Sequence record: PP658200.1
Direction: 5' to 3' (one strand)
From: Escherichia phage HY126
Length of the DNA: 64,000 nucleotides
Shown: positions 2,675-50,025 of the stretch, piece after piece
Position numbering within the stretch: position 1 is the stretch's first letter
Layout: each line of letters opens with the position of its first letter
Translations under genes and position numbers: made by a program
The notes under the pieces: model-generated
Databases searched by the model: none
What the model saw: the letters and a program-made list of their open reading frames with translations, nothing else
Told to the model about the DNA's origin: nothing

Positions 2675-3390
2675 TAGTCAAGGAATCCTTTAACATAATC
2701 AAAATCACGTTCAAACACATGGGCACTTACCATGGTATGAGTATAATCACCAACTTCTACACCACATTCGTTAGCGATATAATGAAGTAATTTTCCTTGG
2801 AGATAAAAATCCAACTGCATAACAACAGCACAGTTCTGAGAACGCATATGACAGTGGGTATAAAGCTTACCATCACGAATATAATAAGTCACTGAGTCAG
2901 TACATGGATATTCAAGCGTTTCGTCTGAATCAAGCAAAGCCTGATCGGAACTTTCTAGAATTTGGAACACAACTCTTCGGGAGTTAGGCTTCTCTTTAAG
3001 TTCTTTTAGAAGAGCTGGTAATTGGGCCGCAATGCGAGGACCATAGAAAGTGTTGAAGTTTGCAGGCAAAGCGTCTGATTTAGGTTTAGAAATAAATTTA
3101 GCGACGTTAGGATATGCCTTAAATGCTTCTTTTGCATCAGTACCACCAGAAATCATAAATTTCCAGAAATCTTCAGCATATTCATAAGAGATGCGATTAA
3201 TACGTGGGTCGGTCATTTTGAATGATGAAGGGGTATCAACAACTACTGTCATAGACCCAATTTCATTACAACGTCCAATACGAGAATCAGTAACGAACTG
3301 TGGATTTTCTAAAATTTCACGATTGACAGCTTTAAATGCGGATTGAAAATCTGCGGCTTTAATATATTTCATTGTGTTATGTTTTCCCAT
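2674..3390 (-). CDS. 42: dCMP hydroxymethylase
   Basis: ORF track 238 aa; thymidylate-synthase-fold signatures (NSRRVVFQILE, CTDSVTYYIRD, SAHVF) as in T4 gp42. Confidence 0.85.
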   Translation of the reverse strand: MGKHNTMKYIKAADFQSAFKAVNREILENPQFVTDSRIGRCNEIGSMTVVVDTPSSFKMTDPRINRISYEYAEDFWKFMISGGTDAKEAFKAYPNVAKFISKPKSDALPANFNTFYGPRIAAQLPALLKELKEKPNSRRVVFQILESSDQALLDSDETLEYPCTDSVTYYIRDGKLYTHCHMRSQNCAVVMQLDFYLQGKLLHYIANECGVEVGDYTHTMVSAHVFERDFDYVKGFLD

Positions 3391-3572
3391 GTTTACCTCA
3401 ATACAGTTATTATATACTCAATTCATAAAGCTTATTTGAATTTCTTAGCGATGTTGATATAACGTAAAGCTTCAGCATCGATACTTCCAAGAACACTATG
3501 AAGAAATGCATCAGCATAGTATTCTAGTTGAACAGGTTTCTTTAATCACTTTAAGCCGCTTTGGTTTCAAAC

Positions 3573-5271: not shown

Positions 5272-6959
5272 TAGATTCGTTCCCATTGATGAGTGATATC
5301 GCCACCGATTGGACGATAGGAAACACCAGTTTCTTTATCAGTTAGTACCCATTTACCAGGATTTTTTGTAATCAGAGTAGCCGTTACAGGTTCTGCTACG
5401 TCATAACTAATAGAGCCGTCCTGAAGTACACGGCCCATGTTACGTAATTGCTTAGTCAGAAGTTCCATACCTTTATAATATGCGGCTACCGCTTTAAGTG
5501 GATTATTCTTGAAATAACCACCTAATGCAATCCAGATAATTGCCACTGCCAAATGATGATACTCGTTAAACGAACTCATCTTTCCATATTTGTAAACTAA
5601 TGGATTGATGTTAATAGACACATTACAAGTTGTTTCATCAATAGTAAACTGTCCCCAAGTCGGATTAGCGTTGAATTCATCATAACCTGAAACAGCGTAA
5701 AGCACTTTAGCTTCATCATACAATTTTGGCCCATAAATCTTGGTTTCACCAAAATATCCACGAGGGTCGATAAACTTGACTTCACAATTATCAGTAATCA
5801 TAGTATTACTGAAGTTCGGGTCGCCATGAATAACAGAGTACTGTCCCTGAGAACGGTTATGATAACGAATAAGGTGTTCTAAAGCTTGTTTCAACATTGG
5901 CTTCAGACGCCCAATCTTAGTGTAGTTCACATGTGTTATTTTACCAAATGAATCAATCAATGGTTGAATACTTTCACAACGATCAATAACTTTAGTATAG
6001 AATTCTTTAGTGAAATCACGACGAACAGTTTCAGGACTTACAAAATAAGTGTCTGTGCTGAATTTCAGTGCATCTAAAATTGCATCAACAATTTGTGGAC
6101 GAGCAAGACTTGATTTGGATTTAATATATTCAAATGCTGGCTTACCTTTAATACGTTCCATAATAAAGTGGCCGCCAGGATGATAACTTACAATCCGTGG
6201 AACTGAATCTGATTTAACTTTCTTATACCAATTGACTTCATCTTTTTGAAGTGCAACGCCCTGTTCTGTTAAAGCAATCTTTGTTACCGTTTCTTCGCCA
6301 ATTTCAACTGCATTAAAACTACGATTAAGTTCACGAACTTCATGAGCTTTTTCAAGTTTAGGCATATCACCAAGGTCGATGATATTCATAAGCTCTGATT
6401 TATTGAATGCGCTGCCGTAAAGGAATTCTACGAAATCACGTCCTTTGCAGTATTCATGAATTTCCTCATCAGTAGAACCCATATAGAATTCCCAGTCTTT
6501 GAACTGATAAATTCCTACAACATTACCACCTGTTGAACCTACATTAGTGATATTTTCACCGTCGAAATTATATCGACATTCGTCACCCTTAACATAGATT
6601 GCGTTAACATTCCAAGACCACGAACCAAAATCAGGAATAATATCACACCAGTTAACAATTACATTATGGCCGTCTAAATCTTTGTGCAATTTAGCAAGAG
6701 CATAAGCAGAACCATACGCTTCATCAACTGTACGAATAGTCACATTGAACCCTTCTTGCTCACAATAAGCTCGAACAGTTTCAGCAAATTTTGAATGAAC
6801 TACTACAATAATTTCATCTGCGCCAAGGTCAGAATAAATTGTATACAAATTGCTCAGAATAGTGTCTTGTTTATAGTTAACAAGCACCTTAGGAATATGA
6901 TGCGTTATTGGATACAAACGAGTTGCCAGTCCAGCACCAAGAATAACAGCTTTTTTCAT
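5271..6959 (-). CDS. Bifunctional sugar-1-phosphate nucleotidyltransferase / sugar kinase
   Basis: ORF track 562 aa; N-term ILGAGLATRLYPIT...PKVLV (NTP-transferase fold); C-term IHGDPNFSN (APH/choline-kinase-like catalytic loop). Confidence 0.75.
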   Translation of the reverse strand: MKKAVILGAGLATRLYPITHHIPKVLVNYKQDTILSNLYTIYSDLGADEIIVVVHSKFAETVRAYCEQEGFNVTIRTVDEAYGSAYALAKLHKDLDGHNVIVNWCDIIPDFGSWSWNVNAIYVKGDECRYNFDGENITNVGSTGGNVVGIYQFKDWEFYMGSTDEEIHEYCKGRDFVEFLYGSAFNKSELMNIIDLGDMPKLEKAHEVRELNRSFNAVEIGEETVTKIALTEQGVALQKDEVNWYKKVKSDSVPRIVSYHPGGHFIMERIKGKPAFEYIKSKSSLARPQIVDAILDALKFSTDTYFVSPETVRRDFTKEFYTKVIDRCESIQPLIDSFGKITHVNYTKIGRLKPMLKQALEHLIRYHNRSQGQYSVIHGDPNFSNTMITDNCEVKFIDPRGYFGETKIYGPKLYDEAKVLYAVSGYDEFNANPTWGQFTIDETTCNVSININPLVYKYGKMSSFNEYHHLAVAIIWIALGGYFKNNPLKAVAAYYKGMELLTKQLRNMGRVLQDGSISYDVAEPVTATLITKNPGKWVLTDKETGVSYRPIGGDITHQWERI

Positions 6960-7000
6960 GTTGTGGTCCTCATTGGTAAGTAGGAGTATTGTACACTATT

Positions 7001-7144
7001 CTAGTTAAAGCATTCATACTTTGCTTGTAGTCCAATCATAATCCATCCGATTATAAGAGTCGGAATCATTACTGGAGCCGTTAAGCTCCAGTAGATAGTC
7101 ATGACAAGCATCAATAGTAAAAGTCCTATTGTTATTGCTTTCAT
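7001..7144 (-). CDS. 47-aa hydrophobic peptide (MKAITIGLLLLMLVMTIYW...)
   Basis: ATG overlaps SIS gene stop (ATGA); stop TAG at 7003..7001 precedes the GAGG SD of 5271..6959; two predicted TM stretches. Below ORF-track size cutoff. Confidence 0.4.
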   Translation of the reverse strand: MKAITIGLLLLMLVMTIYWSLTAPVMIPTLIIGWIMIGLQAKYECFN

Positions 7145-7776
7145 TGTTCGCCTCGTAACATGGCACCTAGTGCACCGCCAGGGTGGAACTTAAGGAAGTC
7201 ATTAGAGGTAAATCCACGTTCAGACGAAAGGTTGATAGCAAACGTATCGATAAGCGCTAACAACAATGTAGTGGACATAGTCGGAGCCAGAGAATTCTCA
7301 TCAACCTCTACTGCGATGCCTGTACAGAACGTATAATCAAAAAGAGCTTCGTATTCTTGTGGAATGTCCGGGTTACAATGCAACAGAATCTGTTTGACGT
7401 TCGGACGAATCATTTTAAGATGCTTAGCCACGCCTATCATTTCTTCAGTTTTACCAGAACGACTAATATGAATCAACACATCATTAGGCGCAATGAATCC
7501 TGCATCACCGTGAGAATAATGCCCAGTGTTCAAGTACATACTCGGGATACCGAGTGAAGCAAATGTCTCAGAAGCTTTAGTTGCAATATTAGCATTCTTA
7601 CCAACACCTGTAATAATTACTCGGCTTTCATAATTACTAAGTCCTGGGCGTCGAAGAGTTTCTAGAATAGCATTATAACGAGCAGGGTTTTGACTAATTA
7701 CTTTGGCCATAGCGGCCAAAGAAGAAGCTTGTTTTATGATTGCGTCAATAGCGATAGTAATAGGAGTAGTTTTCAT
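7141..7776 (-). CDS. SIS-domain sugar-phosphate isomerase, KdsD/GutQ-type (arabinose-5-phosphate isomerase-like)
   Basis: ORF track 211 aa; VIITGVGKNANIATKASETFASLGIPS, HGDAG, ISRSGKTEE, PTMSTT pattern typical of KdsD-type SIS domains; no CBS domains. Confidence 0.75.
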   Translation of the reverse strand: MKTTPITIAIDAIIKQASSLAAMAKVISQNPARYNAILETLRRPGLSNYESRVIITGVGKNANIATKASETFASLGIPSMYLNTGHYSHGDAGFIAPNDVLIHISRSGKTEEMIGVAKHLKMIRPNVKQILLHCNPDIPQEYEALFDYTFCTGIAVEVDENSLAPTMSTTLLLALIDTFAINLSSERGFTSNDFLKFHPGGALGAMLRGEQ

Positions 7777-41955: not shown

Positions 41956-42216
41956 TTAAGCTTTACCGCCAGAAATAATTCCGAAGTTGTTAAAATCGTA
42001 TCCAATATCGTCAACATCTACTTTAGGGCTTGCTACAACATAAGCAATTTCACTACGTTTTGCATAGGTGTTGATTTCTTTACCATCGCCACCTAAGAAA
42101 AAATACCCATTACGTTTTAATGAGCCAAAGTCTTCCGCATCACCAATGAAAGCTTTAACTTTAAATTTAGGACCTTTGGCATCTGCTTCAGCGATAAATT
42201 CTTGATACATTTTCAT
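41956..42216 (-). CDS. Internal-protein-like, capsid targeting sequence MKMYQEFIAE
   Basis: ORF track 86 aa. Confidence 0.65.
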   Translation of the reverse strand: MKMYQEFIAEADAKGPKFKVKAFIGDAEDFGSLKRNGYFFLGGDGKEINTYAKRSEIAYVVASPKVDVDDIGYDFNNFGIISGGKA

Positions 42217-42694: not shown

Positions 42695-42976
42695 CTATTT
42701 TTCTGAAGCGCCTGAAATATATTTTTCAAGACGTTGTTTCATCAGCGAGCCGTTCTTAGCGATTTCTTCCGGTTTATCGCACATACGTAACAAGGCTTCA
42801 AGCTTAGCGATATCGCTGGTACGTTCAAATTTGCGAGTATCTATCTTACTAGCAAGTTCAGAAATACGTGCTAGTAGACTTTCGGCTTCAACCAAAGCTG
42901 CACCTAGCTTAGTTGCAAATGTGTCAGTAGCTTCGTTAAGAATAGATTCTGATAAAAATTCACTATAGGTTTTCAT
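42695..42976 (-). CDS. Internal-protein-like, capsid targeting sequence [10 protein letters not shown]
   Basis: Track ORF trimmed to ATG 42976, overlapping gene e stop (ATGA). Confidence 0.65.
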
Positions 42977-43954: not shown

Positions 43955-44195
43955 CTCGGTCCCATGATTTGGCCATTAATTCGGACATAAATTCTTCAAT
44001 GCGCGTTTCTTTAGATGGACTTTCACTATTAGAGACCGCAAGTTTGTAATCTGCAATAGGACAGAACATATCAAGGTCCATATTAAGGTCGTCTTTGATT
44101 TTTTCTTCTGACACATCTTTATCGTATGTGTACAGATAACTATCACATGATTCTGATTTAATGTAAATTGCTATACTCATCTCAAATTCCTGCAT
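43944..44195 (-). CDS. Hypothetical acidic protein
   Basis: ORF track 83 aa. Confidence 0.45.
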   Translation of the reverse strand: MQEFEMSIAIYIKSESCDSYLYTYDKDVSEEKIKDDLNMDLDMFCPIADYKLAVSNSESPSKETRIEEFMSELMAKSWDRDDE

Positions 44196-44668
44196 TCGGT
44201 AATAAAACGTTCAACTTCATTATTCTTGGCTTTTATCTTGTCTTTATGTTCTTGTAAACTACTTTTAATAAGATTAATAATGATGCCTACAGTACCTCCA
44301 CCAATTATACCGCCAATTATACTTACGATAGTAGATGCTAATAAGATAGCAATAATATCAACAAAACCGAAAGAACTCACCTTAGTACTAAAAAACCACA
44401 CTGATGGTACAAATATAATCCATCCTGTTATCCATTGACACTTATTGAAAAACTTTTCAAGCTCAGCTTGAGTTGTTCGTATTACTTCATCGATAGGTTG
44501 ATAACCATTAATATGTCTGTTCACGATAATACCTGCTGGCTGGTCGATTTTAAATTCTTGGCAAATACGTTTCACTAAGTAGGATGGACATCCTGTCCAA
44601 TCCACTGAATAGTACGAAATACCTTCATTGCCGTCGTCAATATTAGACCAATATGTTTTGTTAATCAT
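44177..44668 (-). CDS. Membrane protein, C-terminal ERFITECR motif family
   Basis: ORF track 163 aa; hydrophobic helices then Lys-rich tail ending NEVERFITECRNLR. Confidence 0.55.
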   Translation of the reverse strand: MINKTYWSNIDDGNEGISYYSVDWTGCPSYLVKRICQEFKIDQPAGIIVNRHINGYQPIDEVIRTTQAELEKFFNKCQWITGWIIFVPSVWFFSTKVSSFGFVDIIAILLASTIVSIIGGIIGGGTVGIIINLIKSSLQEHKDKIKAKNNEVERFITECRNLR

Positions 44669-45381
44669 TACCAGCCTTCCATAGGGAATTCCAGATAAAC
44701 TTGAGCGTTGACACGAATTTCGTTGGTAATCTTTTTAACTCGGTCTGTATTACGAGATACACGTCCGAACCAACGCCATCCATTACTAATTGCACGAGAA
44801 CCAGTGTGCCATGTTTGCCAATCAAACTGAAGAAGAGTACGGTCTGGAGCTTCCCATTTCTCTAGTTCGCCTTTTTCGATTTTTTCGAGGACTTCTTTGT
44901 GCCACTGGCGATAGATAAGTTCGCCATCAGGAATCTGACTGAACTCTGCAGTTCCTGTTGCAAAATGAGTAGGACACACATCAGCGTTAACAAGACCAAG
45001 AATATGTTCAGAATGGTAACGAGGGTTGTCATAATCAGGTTGTCCTGCAGTAATAAAGTGTTGACCAACCGGAATATCCGGGCGTGGTACATCATCATGG
45101 TGATAACCTGGGATAGCAGGGTACCAACCAGGCATCAGCATGTGGACTCGTGAATCAAATACAACCTGGTCGGTGTTCCAATCATCAGGCAAGTTCATGA
45201 TGAAGCTGCGAGTAATAGGACCACCGTTATTATAAGCAAATTCTAAACTACAGTTGAAGAACATAGGCTCGTTTTTAATCTGGTCATTTTTAATCGCATG
45301 AGCAAAACCACCTACTGCACGAGCTTGACTATTAAACACTTTAGAACTATTCATATTATTTTCCTCGACATTCTTTAACAA
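44668..45381 (-). CDS. Hypothetical protein
   Basis: ORF track 237 aa; Trp/His/Pro-rich, no recognised motif. Confidence 0.55.
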   Translation of the reverse strand: MLKNVEENNMNSSKVFNSQARAVGGFAHAIKNDQIKNEPMFFNCSLEFAYNNGGPITRSFIMNLPDDWNTDQVVFDSRVHMLMPGWYPAIPGYHHDDVPRPDIPVGQHFITAGQPDYDNPRYHSEHILGLVNADVCPTHFATGTAEFSQIPDGELIYRQWHKEVLEKIEKGELEKWEAPDRTLLQFDWQTWHTGSRAISNGWRWFGRVSRNTDRVKKITNEIRVNAQVYLEFPMEGW

Positions 45382-45661
45382 AATTTTCTAAATCTGTTGA
45401 TTCAATAGCTTTTTTACGAGCTTCAGCGTGTTCTTCTTCAGTTAATCTACGTTTAAACTTGACCCAAACATTATGGTCGAAACCTGTTGTCGCGTATAAT
45501 AACAGAGCACCAACGAATAACAAAAACGGTGATAAAAATACACAACCAGGAACACCGTCCATGCCATAGGCCTTTTGTAATACTGCAACAGAAAGCACAG
45601 CATAAAAAGGTGATGTAAGTATCGTTAAAAGGCCAATTCGGTTGGTTTCGGATAATTTCAT
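45356..45661 (-). CDS. Membrane protein, C-terminal ENFVKECR motif family
   Basis: Track ORF trimmed to ATG 45661 (GGAG SD; MKLSETNRIG...); two TM helices; ends ENFVKECRGK. Confidence 0.55.
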   Translation of the reverse strand: MKLSETNRIGLLTILTSPFYAVLSVAVLQKAYGMDGVPGCVFLSPFLLFVGALLLYATTGFDHNVWVKFKRRLTEEEHAEARKKAIESTDLENFVKECRGK

Positions 45662-45680
45662 AATATTCTCCTCATGTTTA

Positions 45681-45718
45681 ATAGGACTACTATAACATAG
45701 TCCTATCAGTTTGTACAC
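45681..45718 (-). promoter_or_regulatory. Promoter/stem-loop cassette
   Basis: Minus sense GTGTACA...TGTTATAGTAGTCCTAT with inverted repeat ATAGGACTA/TAGTCCTAT. Confidence 0.5.
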
Positions 45719-45919
45719 TTATTTTGACATTTCTTCGATGTCACGACGATACCCATCACGAACTTCACGAAGAGCTTCAAGGCCACACATAGGCTCGATA
45801 CCAGTAATGTGAACTTGATTAATCTGATACTCTACATCTTCTAACTGAGCGAAAACATAACGACGTTCTGCTGCACAACCAGGTTTAGCTTTACCGAAAC
45901 GTTTATTCAAAGTAGTCAT
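45719..45919 (-). CDS. Hypothetical protein
   Basis: Track ORF (GTG start 45937) trimmed to ATG 45919 with GGAG SD. Confidence 0.45.
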   Translation of the reverse strand: MTTLNKRFGKAKPGCAAERRYVFAQLEDVEYQINQVHITGIEPMCGLEALREVRDGYRRDIEEMSK

Positions 45920-45948
45920 TTTTATATCTCCATTCACTCATTTGTTTT

Positions 45949-45987
45949 GATAGGTCTATAGTATCAACAACTACAGACCTTGTAAAC
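45949..45987 (-). promoter_or_regulatory. Promoter/stem-loop cassette
   Basis: Minus sense GTTTACA-AGGTCT...TACTATAGACCTATC; -35 abuts the stop of 46000..46956. Confidence 0.5.
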
Positions 45988-45999
45988 AGTTTTGCGAAA

Positions 46000-46956
46000 T
46001 TATTTGAAAGGTTTTACCATATGGAAATTTTGTTTGAAACGTTTGACGTAATCGTCATGTCCTAAGCTTTGGTACATACTTACTACTTTGCTGTAGTTTT
46101 CCCAGGCATACTCACGGAACCAACCAGAGGTGATGCTTGTACAGACTTTTTCCAATGCCATCATGAAACTGACTTCAGGATTAATTTTAAAGTCATTAGG
46201 AATTTGAGAACGTTCTAATGCTAGTACACATGATTCTTCGTATACACCGGCCAATTTGACCATTTCTGGTAATGATTCAAACTTCTCGCGTGAGGTCATG
46301 ACTTCAGAACCATCTTTCATATAAAATGTATACGCTGGACGGTCTGTTAGTGCAATGGCTTCATGAATAGTATCATGGTCATACGTATAGATGTCATCTT
46401 TAAAGAACGCACTTTTAGAAGTGTCAAGAACTGGGTGAGCATAGTTCAAGGTTTCTTTCTGGCGTTTCAGCATAATTTCAGTAAGTTCATCGTTCAGTGT
46501 AACACCTTTACCACGAAGATACTGAATATGGTTCATAGTCTTTAAAAAGAATGGATTATTTTTCTTGAAACGATGAGACATCTTAATTGCAAGACATAAC
46601 TCAGGAGTTGCCCAATAAAACCCGTTCAAACGGTCTTTAGACAAATTTTTCTTGGCGTATTTTAAAAGGTCATAAGAAGACGTGAAATCTTCAGGAGTGA
46701 GTTCACCGACTAATTCACGGACATTAGTGATTGCCGGAACAATATATGCTTCAAAATGAGTTTCGCGTCCATTATGGAAGCATTTGAAAACTTGGACATC
46801 AGGGTTATCTTGTTGAACATATACACCCATCATTTGATTTTTGAATGCATTCCAAGAACCTTGGTCTGCAATAAAGTCCCAGTCACTATTTTTGATAGCG
46901 TTAGAATCAATAAGACCATGATAGTGAAGTGCACGAGAACCAATAACTAACATCAT
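46000..46956 (-). CDS. Hypothetical 318-aa protein
   Basis: ORF track; N-terminal IGSRALHYHG...SDWDF is only loosely nucleotidyltransferase-like (spacing atypical). Confidence 0.6.
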   Translation of the reverse strand: MMLVIGSRALHYHGLIDSNAIKNSDWDFIADQGSWNAFKNQMMGVYVQQDNPDVQVFKCFHNGRETHFEAYIVPAITNVRELVGELTPEDFTSSYDLLKYAKKNLSKDRLNGFYWATPELCLAIKMSHRFKKNNPFFLKTMNHIQYLRGKGVTLNDELTEIMLKRQKETLNYAHPVLDTSKSAFFKDDIYTYDHDTIHEAIALTDRPAYTFYMKDGSEVMTSREKFESLPEMVKLAGVYEESCVLALERSQIPNDFKINPEVSFMMALEKVCTSITSGWFREYAWENYSKVVSMYQSLGHDDYVKRFKQNFHMVKPFK

Positions 46957-46984
46957 AATATTTTCCTCGGATTAATTCATTAAC

Positions 46985-47224
46985 TTAAATTTCACGACAT
47001 GCGATATCATATTCATCCCAGAGGTCATCGTGTGAAGCCTCTACCAATGGAACGATTGTACCATTTATGTCTTCATTATAAGGGCAAATTGTACAGTGTG
47101 CGTCTTCGAATCGGATACCTTTGTGTTCAGATTTTTTATAACGCATATCGAATATCTTTGCAAATTTTTCACGAGTAATGGTTTTACCAACCACTTTGGT
47201 TCCGATACTTTCGTAATAAATCAT
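46985..47224 (-). CDS. Hypothetical protein
   Basis: Track ORF trimmed to ATG 47224 with GGAG SD; CTICPY...IACREI. Confidence 0.45.
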   Translation of the reverse strand: MIYYESIGTKVVGKTITREKFAKIFDMRYKKSEHKGIRFEDAHCTICPYNEDINGTIVPLVEASHDDLWDEYDIACREI

Positions 47225-47243
47225 TGTGGACTCCATTTAATTT

Positions 47244-47282
47244 GATAGGACTACTATAACATAGCCCTATCTTGTTGTAAAC
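47244..47282 (-). promoter_or_regulatory. Promoter/stem-loop cassette
   Basis: Minus sense GTTTACA...TGTTATAGTAGTCCTATC. Confidence 0.5.
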
Positions 47283-47286
47283 TGTT

Positions 47287-47484
47287 TTAGCAAGAATAAC
47301 TAGACGATACCCAGCCTTGAACAGTGATACTATTGTGGGATAATGAGATCGCGTCCTGGAGATTCAGACCTGCGTTATCTTCAATCCATAACGTAACTTC
47401 TTCGCGTTCTTCTGTTGCAATTTGGAACAGGTTTTCCAGAGCAGCTACTGCCGTACGTACAGCACAATCTAATTCACGAGACAT
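47287..47484 (-). CDS. Small acidic protein, member 1 of C-terminal W-x-SS-x-x-C triad
   Basis: ORF track 65 aa; ends QGWVSSSYSC. Confidence 0.5.
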   Translation of the reverse strand: MSRELDCAVRTAVAALENLFQIATEEREEVTLWIEDNAGLNLQDAISLSHNSITVQGWVSSSYSC

Positions 47485-47493
47485 ATGGTTTCC

Positions 47494-47766
47494 TTAGCAA
47501 GTGTGAGAAGATGCGATCCAACCACCAGTTTCGAGGCTTAGGTTGTAGTCGTATTGGTAAACGTCGGCCCATTCAGCATAGCCGTTTTTTGTACAACGTT
47601 CAAGGTCGGCTTTAAGCTGTCCGGGTGAATGATATGTTCCACCCATACCATAAGCTGGATACAAGTCGAATGTTGTGTTTTGTTTATCAGCAATTTCTTT
47701 GGCAGCCTCAATAGCTGCATAGATTTTTGCTACAGCTTCAGCCAGTTCGGTTTGTTCTTTAGACAT
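47494..47766 (-). CDS. Small acidic protein, member 2 of triad
   Basis: ORF track 90 aa; ends TGGWIASSHTC. Confidence 0.5.
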   Translation of the reverse strand: MSKEQTELAEAVAKIYAAIEAAKEIADKQNTTFDLYPAYGMGGTYHSPGQLKADLERCTKNGYAEWADVYQYDYNLSLETGGWIASSHTC

Positions 47767-47775
47767 AGTGATTCC

Positions 47776-48081
47776 TTAGCACAACGCAGAAGACGAAACC
47801 CAAGCACCTTCAGTAATAACGTAACCATTACCTTCACGCTTAACATCGCCACCATTATTTTCAATTTCATTTTTCATCCACTGGGATACGATTTCACCCT
47901 TAGGATAATAAGTACGACCGCTACCATAATCACCTACAGAAAATGATACGGCATATTGGTCTGCGATCTTTGTTGCTTCTTCTTCGATACGTTCAGCTTG
48001 ATTCAGAAGTTTATAAATTGCATCTGAAGCGGATTTGGCATCATTAAACTCTGGTACTTTAATTTCAATAATCTTACTCAT
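47776..48081 (-). CDS. Small acidic protein, member 3 of triad
   Basis: ORF track 101 aa; ends EGAWVSSSALC. Confidence 0.5.
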   Translation of the reverse strand: MSKIIEIKVPEFNDAKSASDAIYKLLNQAERIEEEATKIADQYAVSFSVGDYGSGRTYYPKGEIVSQWMKNEIENNGGDVKREGNGYVITEGAWVSSSALC

Positions 48082-48437
48082 TTTCTACATTCCTTAATAA
48101 AGTTTTCGATTGTTTCATTTTCACGTCTAGCTAGGAGTTCATTATAACTAATCATTTGAGAAGCGTAAACCTTTTTATTTTTCTTGTTGTGGTTTATAAA
48201 ATCGTAGTAAAAATAGACTACAGTACAAAATGATGCGATGGATGCAAAGGCTTGGGTATACCGTAAGTCCTGCCATTGGTCTGTGAATCCACCAGTGTTC
48301 CCTATAAATCCTAACACAACGCCGTCAATAAGAAATCCAACTAATCCAAAGGCAAATCCCATGCCAATACTCATAATAAAAATTAGAATGTTCTCACCAA
48401 GAGAAGGCCATACGGTTAAGAGTTGAGGCTTTTGCAT
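48078..48437 (-). CDS. Membrane protein, C-terminal ENFIKECR motif family
   Basis: ORF track 119 aa; two TM helices; ends ENETIENFIKECRK. Confidence 0.55.
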   Translation of the reverse strand: MQKPQLLTVWPSLGENILIFIMSIGMGFAFGLVGFLIDGVVLGFIGNTGGFTDQWQDLRYTQAFASIASFCTVVYFYYDFINHNKKNKKVYASQMISYNELLARRENETIENFIKECRK

Positions 48438-48811
48438 CTTATTTCCTTAACGAATTCCATAGCTTCTTCATATTCATACTTTTTAACAGCTTCATCATAC
48501 TGAGCTTGGGCTTTTGCGCACTGAACTTTCCATTCTCTTAATCGGGCTCTGTGATGACGGCCTTGGTGCCAATATCCTACCCAATTAATAGGCATTAATA
48601 AAAACGGTACAATAAGTGGTGCGACGAACATTAATGAAAATGCTGCATCAGACGATATAACTTCACTAGAATCTAAAACAGCTCCTATAATCATAAAGAT
48701 TAAAAATGCTAAAGCCAAAATAGGGCCAAATAGTACTTCGTTTGGGATTAATTTACGTTTGTATTCGTATGCCCAGGGCTTAATTGGCATGTACAGGGTT
48801 GGCTTTGACAT
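48416..48811 (-). CDS. Membrane protein, C-terminal MEFVKEIRCK motif family
   Basis: Track ORF (TTG start 48841) trimmed to first ATG 48811; start uncertain. Confidence 0.5.
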   Translation of the reverse strand: MSKPTLYMPIKPWAYEYKRKLIPNEVLFGPILALAFLIFMIIGAVLDSSEVISSDAAFSLMFVAPLIVPFLLMPINWVGYWHQGRHHRARLREWKVQCAKAQAQYDEAVKKYEYEEAMEFVKEIRCKSLNS

Positions 48812-49382
48812 ATTCTCTACATTCCATAATAAATTGCTCAAGGATTAAATTGTTAGTGAAATTAGGACTAACAACCATAGTTTCATAAAGCGCATCAATA
48901 GCACTTAAAGCATCAACTCTTTTAAGCAAAAGCTTGCCTTCATACATAGTTTCAGAATCGACGATTAACGTAAAGTAATATTTTTTATTATCGACTAGAA
49001 CTTCTGTATCGATATAAAACATATTAGACCTCAGAAGCTTATCTCTAAAACCATAATAATCTTCTGAATGTTCACTGATATATTCCCATTCAGTGTTTAA
49101 ACAACAAACAGACCACGTAGGAGCGACGAAATCAGTGAATCTAATATCATGGTCTGCAACTAGTTTAGCAATAGCTCCGATATCATGAATCATAATACCT
49201 GGGGCTAATAAAGATTTTCTGCTATGGCTAGCCGTTTTCTCGGTGGTCTCATAAGAAGCTGACCAGTACCATTTACGTCCGGTTGCAACATATCGTAATG
49301 AATCAACTAAAGACGTAGGTGGATTTACCTTATCTCGGAACTCTTCGAACATTGAGTCAATATCATTATTTTGGTTTCGCAT
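48780..49382 (-). CDS. Hypothetical protein with LEQFIMECRE motif near C-terminus
   Basis: Track ORF trimmed to ATG 49382 (MRNQNNDIDSMFEEF...). Confidence 0.5.
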   Translation of the reverse strand: MRNQNNDIDSMFEEFRDKVNPPTSLVDSLRYVATGRKWYWSASYETTEKTASHSRKSLLAPGIMIHDIGAIAKLVADHDIRFTDFVAPTWSVCCLNTEWEYISEHSEDYYGFRDKLLRSNMFYIDTEVLVDNKKYYFTLIVDSETMYEGKLLLKRVDALSAIDALYETMVVSPNFTNNLILEQFIMECREYVKANPVHAN

Positions 49383-49431
49383 GTTAACTCCTTTATTATC
49401 CAAAAGGAGGACCGGAGTCCTCCGTATTATT

Positions 49432-50025
49432 TTATTTCAAAGAGTTAATATATTCTTGTACATCAGCAGAAGTGGTTTCGACACCGGCTGGAGTACCATT
49501 GAACGTTTCAACACGAGTCAGAGTGTCTTCGATATCAACCTTAGTCAGCGCAGCGATTTCAATTACATCATCGGCCGTAGAGATACCAAGGGCATTGGCT
49601 GCTCGAGTTTCACGAATGTATTCGAGTTTGATTGCCAGATTCTGACGAGCATCATCAAGTTCAACCACCTTACGAGCAATTTCAATTCGCATAGCGGCAT
49701 ACCCGTCAGCTTTTGTATTAAGTTGTTCGGCAGTTCGACGATACAGAAGACCAAGCTTAGCATGCATGGTAACATCTTGTCCTTCAGCCAGGAGCTTACG
49801 AATTTCACGTTCCTTAGAAGCGGCTTGCTTATTCTTTTCAATAACAAGTTCGCGAATACGTTTTTCTTCATTAATAGATTTAACAGAAGCCGTTTTTAGT
49901 TCTTTGATTTGGGTAATCAACTTATCTGCAGCTGCGTTATACTGTTCTTCGACAGTCAGATTTTTAGCCATAGCAGTACCCAGTTTAGTGCGGATGAATT
50001 CAACAAGTTTCTTCAGTGTGTTCAT
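49432..50025 (-). CDS. Coiled-coil protein (PspA-like resemblance only)
   Basis: Track ORF (TTG start) trimmed to ATG 50025; ~200 aa predicted all-helical. Confidence 0.55.

What the first reader, a model, noticed from the sequence alone, without database searches (positions are those of the whole stretch)
44177..49382. Five proteins sharing a C-terminal E-x-F-[IV]-x-E-C-R tail, four of them small membrane proteins
ORFs 44177..44668, 45356..45661, 48078..48437, 48416..48811 and 48780..49382 end with ERFITECR, ENFVKECR, ENFIKECR, EFVKEIRC and EQFIMECRE respectively. Codon usage differs between copies (TGC/TGT, CGA/AGA/AGG), so the conservation is at the protein level, not a shared DNA element. 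The first four have transmembrane helices followed by a basic then acidic cytoplasmic tail carrying the motif. A shared short C-terminal peptide on otherwise divergent membrane proteins suggests a common docking or sorting signal. I do not recognise it as a described motif.
Basis: seen in the sequence. Interest (0 to 1): 0.6.

Follow-up and report, generated by a model that had tools for sequence, protein, structure and literature searches.

The report
Shared C-terminal tail in T4-like phages
Several otherwise unrelated early proteins of T4-like phages, most of them small inner-membrane proteins, end in the same short peptide (Phe-Ile/Val-x-x-Cys-Arg). Their genes always lie just after a phage gene that turns out to be a relative of the bacterial membrane-repair protein PspA, so the peptide is probably a common docking tag for that protein.

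Summary
The window is an RB69-like (Mosigvirus) T4-type phage, and the five ORFs are e.2, an RB69ORF133c homologue, e.3, e.4 and e.5. The strict pattern E-x-F-[IV]-x-E-C-[RK] occurs four times in the six-frame translation (0.004 expected), only at these C-termini. e.4 carries a Cys-less variant.

The motif is selected at the protein level. Orthologues from more than ten T4-like genera keep it, despite synonymous codon changes and shifting positions of the next gene's ribosome-binding site. Its core is [FW]-[IVL]-x-x-C-[RK]; the most distant phages have an Ala version. Beyond the motif the families share almost nothing detectable. Genome-wide, only this cluster has it.

The new context is e.6, the conserved gene directly upstream, which is a divergent PspA/IM30 (ESCRT-III superfamily) homologue. 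Tail-bearing genes follow it in every Cys-motif lineage, even where the pair sits elsewhere in the genome.

My best explanation is that the tail is an amphipathic docking helix. It would couple one soluble protein (e.5) and several two-helix membrane proteins to the phage PspA-like protein, as PspB/PspC or LiaI do for PspA and LiaH. This rests on gene neighbourhood only; no binding was tested. I found no published description.

The parts
49432..50025 (-). e.6: conserved 197-aa helical protein, a divergent PspA/IM30 (ESCRT-III superfamily) homologue. It is the candidate hub for the tails.
   Evidence: Named e.6 by synteny and annotation. It is 53-88% identical across 7 genera. A broad family profile hits Vipp1/PspA structures (E=5.5e-5 to 3e-3, aligned from residue 1 to about 146). 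hhalign against E. coli PspA gives P=7e-5. Family members P0229 and P0227 pass the Pfam PF04012 cut-off and match the e.6 profile at 1e-22 to 1e-25. The window protein itself gives no Pfam hit.
49406..49423 (-). Terminator-like hairpin between e.6 and e.5.
   Evidence: GGAGGACTCCGGTCCTCC followed by TTTT. A terminator is also annotated at the equivalent place in phage SA35RD.
50067..50095 (-). Early-promoter-like site upstream of e.6 (TTTACA-17-TATAAT).
   Evidence: 11 of 12 consensus matches. This is a consensus match only.
48780..49382 (-). e.5: soluble 200-aa protein. Its tail is LEQFIMECREYVKANPVHAN, with the motif at 48816-48839.
   Evidence: No hydrophobic segment. PHROG 2607. The tail is the only strongly conserved block across 13 e.5-position proteins that are 9-22% identical apart from the T4 orthologue (47%).
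48416..48811 (-). e.4: two-helix membrane protein with the Cys-less tail variant MEFVKEIRCKSLNS (48434-48457). Its last codons contain the ribosome-binding site and ATG of e.3.
   Evidence: PHROG 2604. Orthologues have E-[ISVM]-R.
48078..48437 (-). e.3: small membrane protein (one clear long hydrophobic segment, a second below threshold) with tail IENFIKECRK (motif 48084-48107).
   Evidence: PHROG 2330. Orthologues read KEFVIDCRKIK (T4) and ETFIKECKS (SP18, WG01).
45356..45661 (-). RB69ORF133c homologue: two-helix membrane protein with tail LENFVKECRGK (motif 45365-45388).
   Evidence: PHROG 9798, with weak cross-hits to the e.2 and e.3 PHROGs confined to the C-terminal part.
44177..44668 (-). 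e.2: cytoplasmic N-domain, two membrane helices, and tail VERFITECRNLR (motif 44189-44212).
   Evidence: PHROG 2203. Five of the 13 invariant columns in a 31-sequence alignment lie in the motif.

Best explanation
The shared tail is a short cytoplasmic amphipathic helix with hydrophobic positions -3, 0, +1 and +4 (L/I/V, F, I/V, C) followed by Arg/Lys. I propose it works as a common docking peptide.

Its most likely partner is e.6, the phage's own PspA/IM30-like protein, encoded directly upstream. On this model the two-helix membrane proteins (e.2, 133c, e.3, e.4) act as inner-membrane anchors or sensors. They recruit the PspA-like protein to the membrane, as PspB/PspC and LiaI do for PspA and LiaH. 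The soluble e.5 carries the same tail and would occupy the same site in the cytosol, which would allow partner switching between a soluble and a membrane-bound state. [quoted passage not shown]

Shown: the motif is real, specific to this cluster and under protein-level selection; e.6 is a PspA/IM30 homologue; tail-bearing genes follow e.6 across deep divergence. Inferred: the helical docking role, e.6 as the partner, partner switching, and the physiological role.
For: Motif reality and specificity:
- 4 strict hits against 0.0037 expected.
- Only these five ORFs score genome-wide.

Protein-level selection:
- The motif is conserved in e.2, e.3 and e.5 of Mosig-, Tequatro-, Dhaka- and Gaprivervirus, with synonymous changes and shifting ribosome-binding-site positions.
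- It is also present in Kanagawa-, Marfa-, Moon-, Biquarta-, Ceceduo- and Pseudotevenvirus.
- It is the best-conserved block of e.2 and e.5.

The families are otherwise unrelated:
- hhalign similarity is confined to 11-17 motif columns in most family pairs. Only e.3/e.4 keep a weak signal once the motif is removed.
- The e.4 lineage keeps F, I/V and R but not Cys. That fits an interface residue better than a catalytic or metal-binding one.

e.6 is PspA-like.

Linkage to e.6:
- The protein immediately after e.6 carries the tail or its Ala version in most lineages examined (not in L025 or L026). This includes avDM5 and EC-F2, where the pair lies between nrdD and nrdG rather than between the tRNA genes and e.
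- In 15 loci, 28 of 198 ORFs downstream of e.6 have the Cys-type tail, against 1 of 160 upstream. The loci are not phylogenetically independent.
- In distant T4-like contigs whose e.6 homologue passes the Pfam PspA threshold, the next 2-4 proteins, soluble and membrane-bound, end in [ILV]-[IVL]-x-x-A-[RK].
- e.6 evolves slowly (53-88% identity), whereas e.5 falls to 16-22% outside the tail beyond its closest relative.

Precedent: small inner-membrane proteins recruit PspA homologues to the membrane (PMC3467454, PMC7619361).

The low-confidence AlphaFold models place the tails in helices.
Against: - No interaction was tested, and the tools offer no complex prediction.
- The structure models are poor (pLDDT 52-54), so the helix and its exposure are not established.
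- A terminator-like hairpin lies between e.6 and e.5, so they need not be strictly co-transcribed.
- The tail-bearing proteins show no similarity to PspB, PspC or LiaI.
- The window's own e.6 does not reach any Pfam threshold. The PspA assignment rests on a family profile and on transitive matches (against 89, 91, 103).
- In one distant contig (L026) the two genes after the e.6 homologue have no recognisable tail. In L025 the first downstream gene has none.
- In the e.5 family the motif could simply be a structural helix of the fold, and a host protein could be the real partner.
Confidence: 0.4

Rival explanations
1. The tails bind one another or e.5, forming a short heteromeric helical bundle. 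This would assemble e.5 with the membrane proteins into one complex without involving e.6. Alternatively, they all bind a conserved host protein.
For: The same motif sits on co-encoded proteins. The a-d-e-a hydrophobic spacing with flanking charges resembles a short coiled-coil layer, as read directly from the sequences. Several bearers occur per genome in enterobacterial phages.
Against: In the 14.6-kb avDM5 locus only the e.5-position protein carries the tail, so hetero-assembly among bearers cannot be the universal function. Six to ten residues are too short for a stable bundle on their own. I could not scan a host proteome for a mimicked tail.
Confidence: 0.25
2. The motif is an inherited remnant. 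The two-helix proteins are tandem paralogues, and e.5's 3' end was copied with them. The tail would be conserved as an ordinary structural helix or a membrane-surface amphipathic helix, not as a docking site.
For: The genes are adjacent and overlapping. There are weak cross-family PHROG hits, and e.3/e.4 keep a residual similarity once the motif is removed. The Kanagawavirus 106-aa protein matches the e.2 PHROG.
Against: Common descent does not explain why only these 6-10 residues stay fixed while everything else diverges beyond recognition, in soluble and membrane proteins alike. The tails contain acidic residues and have near-zero net charge, unlike typical cationic membrane-targeting helices.
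Confidence: 0.2
3. The conserved peptide is a by-product of an RNA or DNA signal at gene junctions. It could be the ribosome-binding site and start of the overlapping downstream gene, or a short recombination linker used for gene shuffling.
For: In the window every motif lies 0-10 nt upstream of, or across, the next start. AAG-GAA (K-E) and AGG/CGA-GGA (R) supply the AAGGA, AGGA or GAGGA ribosome-binding site. The Arg codons are purine-rich. The e.3 and e.5 copies share 17 of 18 nt.
Against: The ribosome-binding site moves while the peptide stays (T4 versus Mosigvirus e.3). SP18/WG01 e.5 has the motif about 25 nt upstream of the next start, with no such site in it. In Merlin the annotated ribosome-binding site lies downstream of the motif. 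avDM5 has a 67-nt gap after the gene. Synonymous differences occur within orthologous families. Only the Cys of e.4 is explained this way.
Confidence: 0.05
4. The conserved Cys-Arg is chemically active, through metal binding, redox chemistry or a thioester. Alternatively, the I-x-E is a cleavage site for the T4 prohead protease gp21, like the N-terminal capsid-targeting sequence MKTYQEFIAE of internal proteins.
For: Cys is invariant in e.2, e.3 and e.5. F-I-x-E resembles the targeting sequences seen in the window, such as MKMYQEFIAE at 41956-42216. The specificity of gp21 is from my own knowledge.
Against: The e.4 lineage and the distant phages replace Cys with I, S, V, M or A. Outside the E. 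coli phages the Glu at +3 becomes Q, G, H, Y, L, S or M. The internal-protein targeting sequence scores only 3.2 bits with the motif HMM. A single Cys per chain is a poor metal site.
Confidence: 0.05

Closest known systems
PspB/PspC with PspA (Proteobacteria) and LiaI with LiaH (Bacillus): small inner-membrane partners that recruit a PspA/IM30 protein
   Same: A PspA-family gene is followed by small inner-membrane proteins with cytoplasmic helical segments, and the proposed role is recruitment of the PspA-like protein to the membrane (PMC3467454, PMC7619361). From my own knowledge, Yersinia PspC is reported to have both termini in the cytoplasm and to bind PspA through its C-terminal domain. 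The hairpin proteins here are predicted to have the same topology.
   Different: There is no sequence similarity to PspB, PspC or LiaI. Here up to five partners, including a soluble one, share one short C-terminal motif, which I know of in no Psp system. The system is phage-encoded, has no PspF-like regulator, and no interaction has been shown.
C-terminal sliding-clamp-binding tails of T4 gp43, gp33 and gp55 (own knowledge)
   Same: Several unrelated proteins of the same phage end in one short hydrophobic peptide that docks to a common hub protein.
   Different: The peptide is different, the hub is different (the gp45 clamp) and the process is different (replication and late transcription). 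The resemblance is conceptual only.
Cargo-loading or encapsulation peptides of encapsulins and bacterial microcompartments (own knowledge)
   Same: A short terminal helix or peptide is shared by otherwise unrelated proteins encoded next to the gene of the assembly they bind.
   Different: Those peptides target cargo into protein shells. Here most bearers are membrane proteins, and the neighbouring gene is a membrane-remodelling PspA homologue.
T4 internal-protein capsid-targeting sequence (MKTYQEFIAE)
   Same: Both contain an F-[IL]-x-E core in the same phage.
   Different: The targeting sequence is N-terminal, is cleaved after the Glu, and has no Cys-Arg. The tail's Glu is not conserved outside the E. 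coli phages.

Membership tests
PspB (PF06667) / PspC (PF04024) / LiaI-type PspA partners | Sequence match to the family model | tested here: not met
   Pfam scan of all five proteins at E up to 1 gives no PspB, PspC or Lia hit. NCBIfam gives none either.
PspB (PF06667) / PspC (PF04024) / LiaI-type PspA partners | Small inner-membrane protein encoded next to a PspA-family gene | tested here: met
   e.2, 133c, e.3 and e.4 have hydrophobic segments. They lie within 6 kb downstream of e.6, which is PspA-like.
PspB (PF06667) / PspC (PF04024) / LiaI-type PspA partners | Physical binding to, and membrane recruitment of, the PspA protein | not testable with these tools
   Needs pull-down, two-hybrid, microscopy or complex prediction.
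PspA/IM30 (PF04012, ESCRT-III superfamily), for e.6 | Score above the Pfam gathering cut-off (33.9 bits) | tested here: inconclusive
   The window e.6 has no hit at E<0.1. Seven of 35 family members hit the model, and P0229 (39.0 bits) and P0227 (35.1 bits) pass the cut-off. Both match the e.6 profile over their full length at E=3.5e-22 and 2.1e-25.
PspA/IM30 (PF04012, ESCRT-III superfamily), for e.6 | Collinear similarity to solved PspA/Vipp1 chains, from the N-terminal amphipathic helix through the helical hairpin | tested here: met
   Profile A9 against PDB sequences: the top eight hits are all Vipp1/PspA (E=5.5e-5 to 6.5e-4, residues 1-146 against 1-147), and E. coli PspA 4WHE scores E=0.003. 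hhalign against E. coli PspA gives P=7e-5 over residues 1-62.
PspA/IM30 (PF04012, ESCRT-III superfamily), for e.6 | ESCRT-III fold and membrane-bound polymer formation | not tested
Overlapping translation-initiation signal (RNA-level constraint) | The conserved bases coincide with the ribosome-binding site or start of the next gene in all orthologues | tested here: not met
   The ribosome-binding-site position shifts, or the site is absent from the motif, in T4 e.3, SP18/WG01 e.5, Merlin e.5 and avDM5.
T4 capsid-targeting sequence / gp21 cleavage site | N-terminal position and an invariant [LI]-x-E cleavage site | tested here: not met
   The motif is C-terminal. The Glu at +3 is replaced in Kanagawa-, Marfa-, Moon- and Aeromonas-phage orthologues. 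The targeting sequence scores 3.2 bits with the motif HMM.

The most novel reading that the evidence does not exclude
T4 and its relatives carry a self-contained, phage-encoded Psp-like membrane-maintenance module. A PspA/ESCRT-III-family protein (e.6) would be switched between a soluble holder (e.5) and a changeable set of small inner-membrane anchors. All of them would engage it through one shared C-terminal peptide, [FW]-[IVL]-x-x-[CA]-[RK]. This would be a docking code not known from any cellular Psp, Vipp1 or ESCRT-III system.
Probability: 0.3. Interest if true: 0.8.

Novelty: new variant of a known kind. Interest (0 to 1): 0.65.

Why it matters
T4 is the reference lytic phage, yet the e.2-e.6 genes have had no function assigned since they were sequenced. 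If the reading is right, a block of 'dark' early genes becomes a testable system, and three things follow.

- It would assign a role to five or six T4-type ORFans at once.
- It would show that lytic phages bring their own PspA/ESCRT-III-type membrane-stabilising machinery. That is relevant to keeping the proton-motive force during injection, superinfection and lysis inhibition after host transcription is shut off.
- It would give the PspA/Vipp1 field a compact set of natural adaptor peptides. A 6-10-residue tag that recruits a PspA homologue would be a handle for studying how these polymers are targeted to membranes.

Even without e.6, a short linear motif held under strong selection on unrelated proteins is a clear target for peptide pull-downs.

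Tried and rejected
- RNA-level origin (ribosome-binding site and start overlap). Rejected after codon-level comparison across genera (and later loci). Only the Cys of e.4 is explained this way.
- Detectable paralogy of the whole proteins. hhalign finds similarity only in the motif columns for most family pairs, with a weak residual signal for e.3/e.4.
- Other copies elsewhere in the genome. None in RB69 plus the window.
- Sequence searches of e.5 and e.6 against PDB with shallow profiles found nothing or a non-significant Vipp1 hit. hhalign of the shallow e.6 profile against E. coli PspA was negative. The link appeared only with the broad family profile.
- The IMG/VR scan for e.5 gave only six close loci.
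- A search of the large protein collection with the bare 12-residue motif was impossible, because the E-value ceiling is 10. So I could not test whether a host protein carries the tail.
- GenBank product names have no support in Pfam, NCBIfam or PHROGs. The names are 'sulfurtransferase' for e.3/e.4, 'site-specific RNA endonuclease' for e.5 and 'host specificity protein' for e.6.
- Literature. No paper held the e.x gene names together with T4, the motif strings, or a phage PspA homologue in T4-like phages.
- Resemblance to the capsid-targeting sequence or a gp21 site, and Cys chemistry. Rejected on conservation grounds.

Full report
**What the window is.** The region is more than 95% identical to RB69-like phages of the genus Mosigvirus. 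In a well-annotated relative, the five ORFs correspond to e.2 (44177-44668), RB69ORF133c (45356-45661), e.3 (48078-48437), e.4 (48416-48811) and e.5 (48780-49382). All lie on the minus strand. e.6 (49432-50025) is directly upstream, and nudE and the lysozyme gene e are downstream.

**Checking the observation.**
- The strict pattern E.F[IV].EC[RK] occurs four times in the six-frame translation of the 64 kb, each time at one of these C-termini. About 0.0037 occurrences are expected from composition.
- An HMM of the motif was run over an approximately whole genome, made of the window plus the RB69 segments outside it. It scores only these five ORFs (12.8-18.6 bits; the next score is 5.7).
- Hydropathy gives hydrophobic segments in e.2, 133c, e.3 and e.4 and none in e.5. 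The stretch after the last clear membrane helix is K/R-rich, which places the tails in the cytoplasm by the positive-inside rule.
- The five proteins fall into five different PHROGs and match no family in the local Pfam-A or NCBIfam libraries. The protein collection's precomputed annotation lists newer Pfam accessions for e.4, e.2 and e.5 homologues (PF26873, PF26896, PF26876), whose names I could not retrieve.

**Protein level or nucleic-acid level?** In the window each motif lies on or just before the ribosome-binding site and start codon of the next gene. For example, the e.4 tail AAG GAA ATA AGA TGC contains AAGGA and the ATG of e.3. This explains the displaced Cys of e.4: e.4 orthologues have I, S, V or M at the motif's Cys position, and SP18 e.4 has no Cys.

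For the other four proteins the overlap does not explain the peptide:
- T4 e.3 places its ribosome-binding site in the R-K codons, whereas Mosigvirus e.3 places it in the K-E codons.
- In SP18 and WG01 e.5, the motif (GCT GAA TGT CGT/CGC) is about 25 nt upstream of the next start and holds no ribosome-binding site.
- In Merlin the annotated ribosome-binding site lies downstream of the motif.
- In Aeromonas phage avDM5, 67 nt of spacer follow the gene.
- Codons differ synonymously within orthologous families.

The conservation is therefore on the peptide.

**How far it is conserved.** T4 itself has EKFVKECREY (e.5), KEFVIDCRKIK (e.3), MKFVKESRC (e.4) and NNFITECRKLK (e.2). The e.2 tail sits in a second frame, because the old T4 record has e.2 interrupted after codon 102. 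Dhakavirus and Gaprivervirus keep the motif.

More distant genera show that the core is [FW]-[IVL]-x-x-C-[RK] and that the Glu is dispensable:
- Kanagawavirus: DFVDQCR, SFIQMCR and KFVKGCR twice.
- Marfavirus: EFIKHCR, SFIKYCR and NW[IV]KGCRK twice.
- Moonvirus: DFINLCR, KFIENCK, LFIMQCR and NFINSCR.
- Aeromonas phages: LFVDYCRR and SF[IV][ND]YC.
- Pseudotevenvirus: KFIHSCK.

In e.2, five of 13 invariant columns lie in the motif. In e.5, six of 17 do. Thirteen e.5-position proteins, 9-22% identical apart from the T4 orthologue (47%), align convincingly only at an L-x-Y-S...N-D strand and at F-I-x-x-C-R.

Between families, profile-profile similarity is limited to the 11-17 motif columns in most pairs. 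e.3/e.4 keep a weak residual signal once the motif is removed, and 133c/e.2 align more widely only when the motif is included. The motif occurs on at least three architectures: e.5-type soluble proteins, two-helix membrane proteins, and small soluble proteins of about 95 aa.

**The neighbour.** e.6 is far better conserved than the tail bearers (53-88% identity across seven genera) and is found in 1,101 phage records, including Klebsiella, Serratia, Yersinia, Citrobacter, Edwardsiella and Aeromonas phages.

The window protein alone matches nothing, and a shallow profile was negative against E. coli PspA. A full HMMER scan of 1.84 billion representative proteins returned a compact family of 48 clusters. 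Several lines then link that family to PspA:
- Seven of 35 members hit Pfam PspA_IM30, and two exceed the curated cut-off (39.0 and 35.1 bits against 33.9).
- Those two match the e.6 profile over their full length at E of about 1e-22 to 1e-25.
- The broad family profile's top PDB hits are Vipp1/PspA chains (E=5.5e-5 to 6.5e-4, with E. coli PspA at 0.003), aligned collinearly from residue 1 to about 146.
- hhalign against E. coli PspA gives P=7e-5 from residue 1.

I conclude that e.6 is a divergent PspA/IM30 (ESCRT-III superfamily) homologue with a phage-specific, highly conserved C-terminal 50 residues. I found no paper that states this for T4-like phages.

**Linkage of tails to e.6.**
- The protein immediately after e.6 carries the tail in every Cys-motif lineage. 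This holds in avDM5 and EC-F2, where the pair lies between nrdD and nrdG rather than between the tRNA genes and e.
- In 15 loci, 28 of 198 ORFs within 7 kb downstream of e.6 have a Cys-type tail, against 1 of 160 upstream (Fisher p=6e-7). The loci are related, so this is descriptive only.
- In distant T4-like contigs whose e.6 homologue is a bona fide Pfam PspA_IM30 match, the next two to four proteins end in an Ala version: SILANARER, AIVHRARLE, TIIARAKSS, SIIKHARSR. Serratia phage WSPA has IIHQARTR.
- Counter-examples exist. One short contig (L026) shows no tail after e.6, and in L025 the first downstream gene has none.

**Mechanism.** Hydrophobic residues at -3, 0, +1 and +4 followed by a basic residue describe one face of a helix, and the low-confidence models put the tails in helices. 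The e.4 lineage keeps F, I/V and R without Cys, which argues for an interface rather than chemistry.

PspA homologues are known to be recruited to the membrane by small inner-membrane partners, namely PspB/PspC and LiaI (PMC3467454, PMC7619361). The most economical reading is that the tail docks these proteins to the phage PspA-like protein. The membrane proteins would be anchors, and e.5 would be a soluble competitor for the same site.

What is shown is the motif, its selection, the identity of e.6 and the synteny. [quoted passage not shown] I put 0.4 on this explanation. The rivals are binding to each other or to a host protein (0.25), an inherited structural or membrane-surface helix (0.2), an RNA or DNA signal (0.05), and Cys chemistry or protease cleavage (0.05).

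**Comparison and novelty.** The arrangement works like a Psp or Lia system: a PspA homologue plus small membrane partners. The partners fail the sequence test for PspB, PspC and LiaI, and a shared C-terminal tag on multiple partners, including a soluble one, is not a feature of known Psp systems. I therefore rate it a new variant of a known kind. The motif itself is undescribed in the libraries and papers I could search.

Noticed in passing
window 47287-47484, 47494-47766, 47776-48081 (minus strand): Three small acidic paralogues end in W-[VI]-[SA]-S-S-x-x-C-stop (GWVSSSYSC, GGWIASSHTC, GAWVSSSALC; PHROGs 4882 and 899). Three to five copies sit at the same place in Dhaka-, Gapriver-, Kanagawa-, Marfa-, Moon- and Muldoonvirus, and none in T4. 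This is a second family in the same cluster with a conserved C-terminal Cys. Its function is unknown.
   Followed up: partly
L002 (T4 record L13089) 2927-3235 and 3223-3414: T4 e.2 (msp7) stops after 102 aa. The rest of the gene, including the tail NNFITECRKLK, is intact in another frame, and relatives such as BW-1 have an uninterrupted 162-aa e.2. Comparing the translations suggests loss of one A in an A-run. This is either a lab-strain mutation or an old sequencing error.
   Followed up: partly
L003 (phage LF82-41) 5991-6090: This Mosigvirus has lost e.3 except its last 30 codons, which are 100% identical to the window. So e.3 is dispensable in nature.
   Followed up: no
L005 (phage BW-1) and other GenBank records: The product names 'sulfurtransferase' (e.3, e.4), 'site-specific RNA endonuclease' (e.5) and 'host specificity protein' (e.6) recur across phage records. 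No Pfam, NCBIfam or PHROG match supports them, so they look like propagated annotation errors.
   Followed up: partly
window 44668-45354 (minus strand): A well-conserved 228-aa protein (RB69ORF132c-like, PHROG 1843, with the stretch HHDDVPRPDIP-GQHF-TAGQPDYDNPRY) sits between 133c and e.2. It travels with the cluster: it is present in Kanagawa-, Marfa-, Moon- and Muldoonvirus, and lies directly upstream of e.6 in Aeromonas phage Aszh-1. It has no Pfam family.
   Followed up: no
window 41956-42216 and 42695-42976 (minus strand): Internal-protein-like ORFs start with the T4 capsid-targeting sequence pattern ([20 protein letters not shown]). It superficially resembles the tail motif (F-I/L-x-E) but scores only about 3 bits with the motif HMM.
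   Followed up: yes
L022 (Serratia phage WSPA) 5652-6745 and L024 (EC-F2) 6624-7571: e.5-position proteins of distant phages carry a longer conserved C-terminal extension after the motif position (VL-x-x-KY-[DN]-P-x-[LI]-x-[FY]-T-[KR]-[IL]). WSPA has two tandem paralogues with it.
   Followed up: no
window 46000-46956 (minus strand): A 318-aa protein with Pfam DUF7277 and DUF7275 (E=1e-27 and 1.6e-78) lies in the middle of the cluster and is conserved in all enterobacterial T4-like genera examined. Its function is unknown.
   Followed up: no
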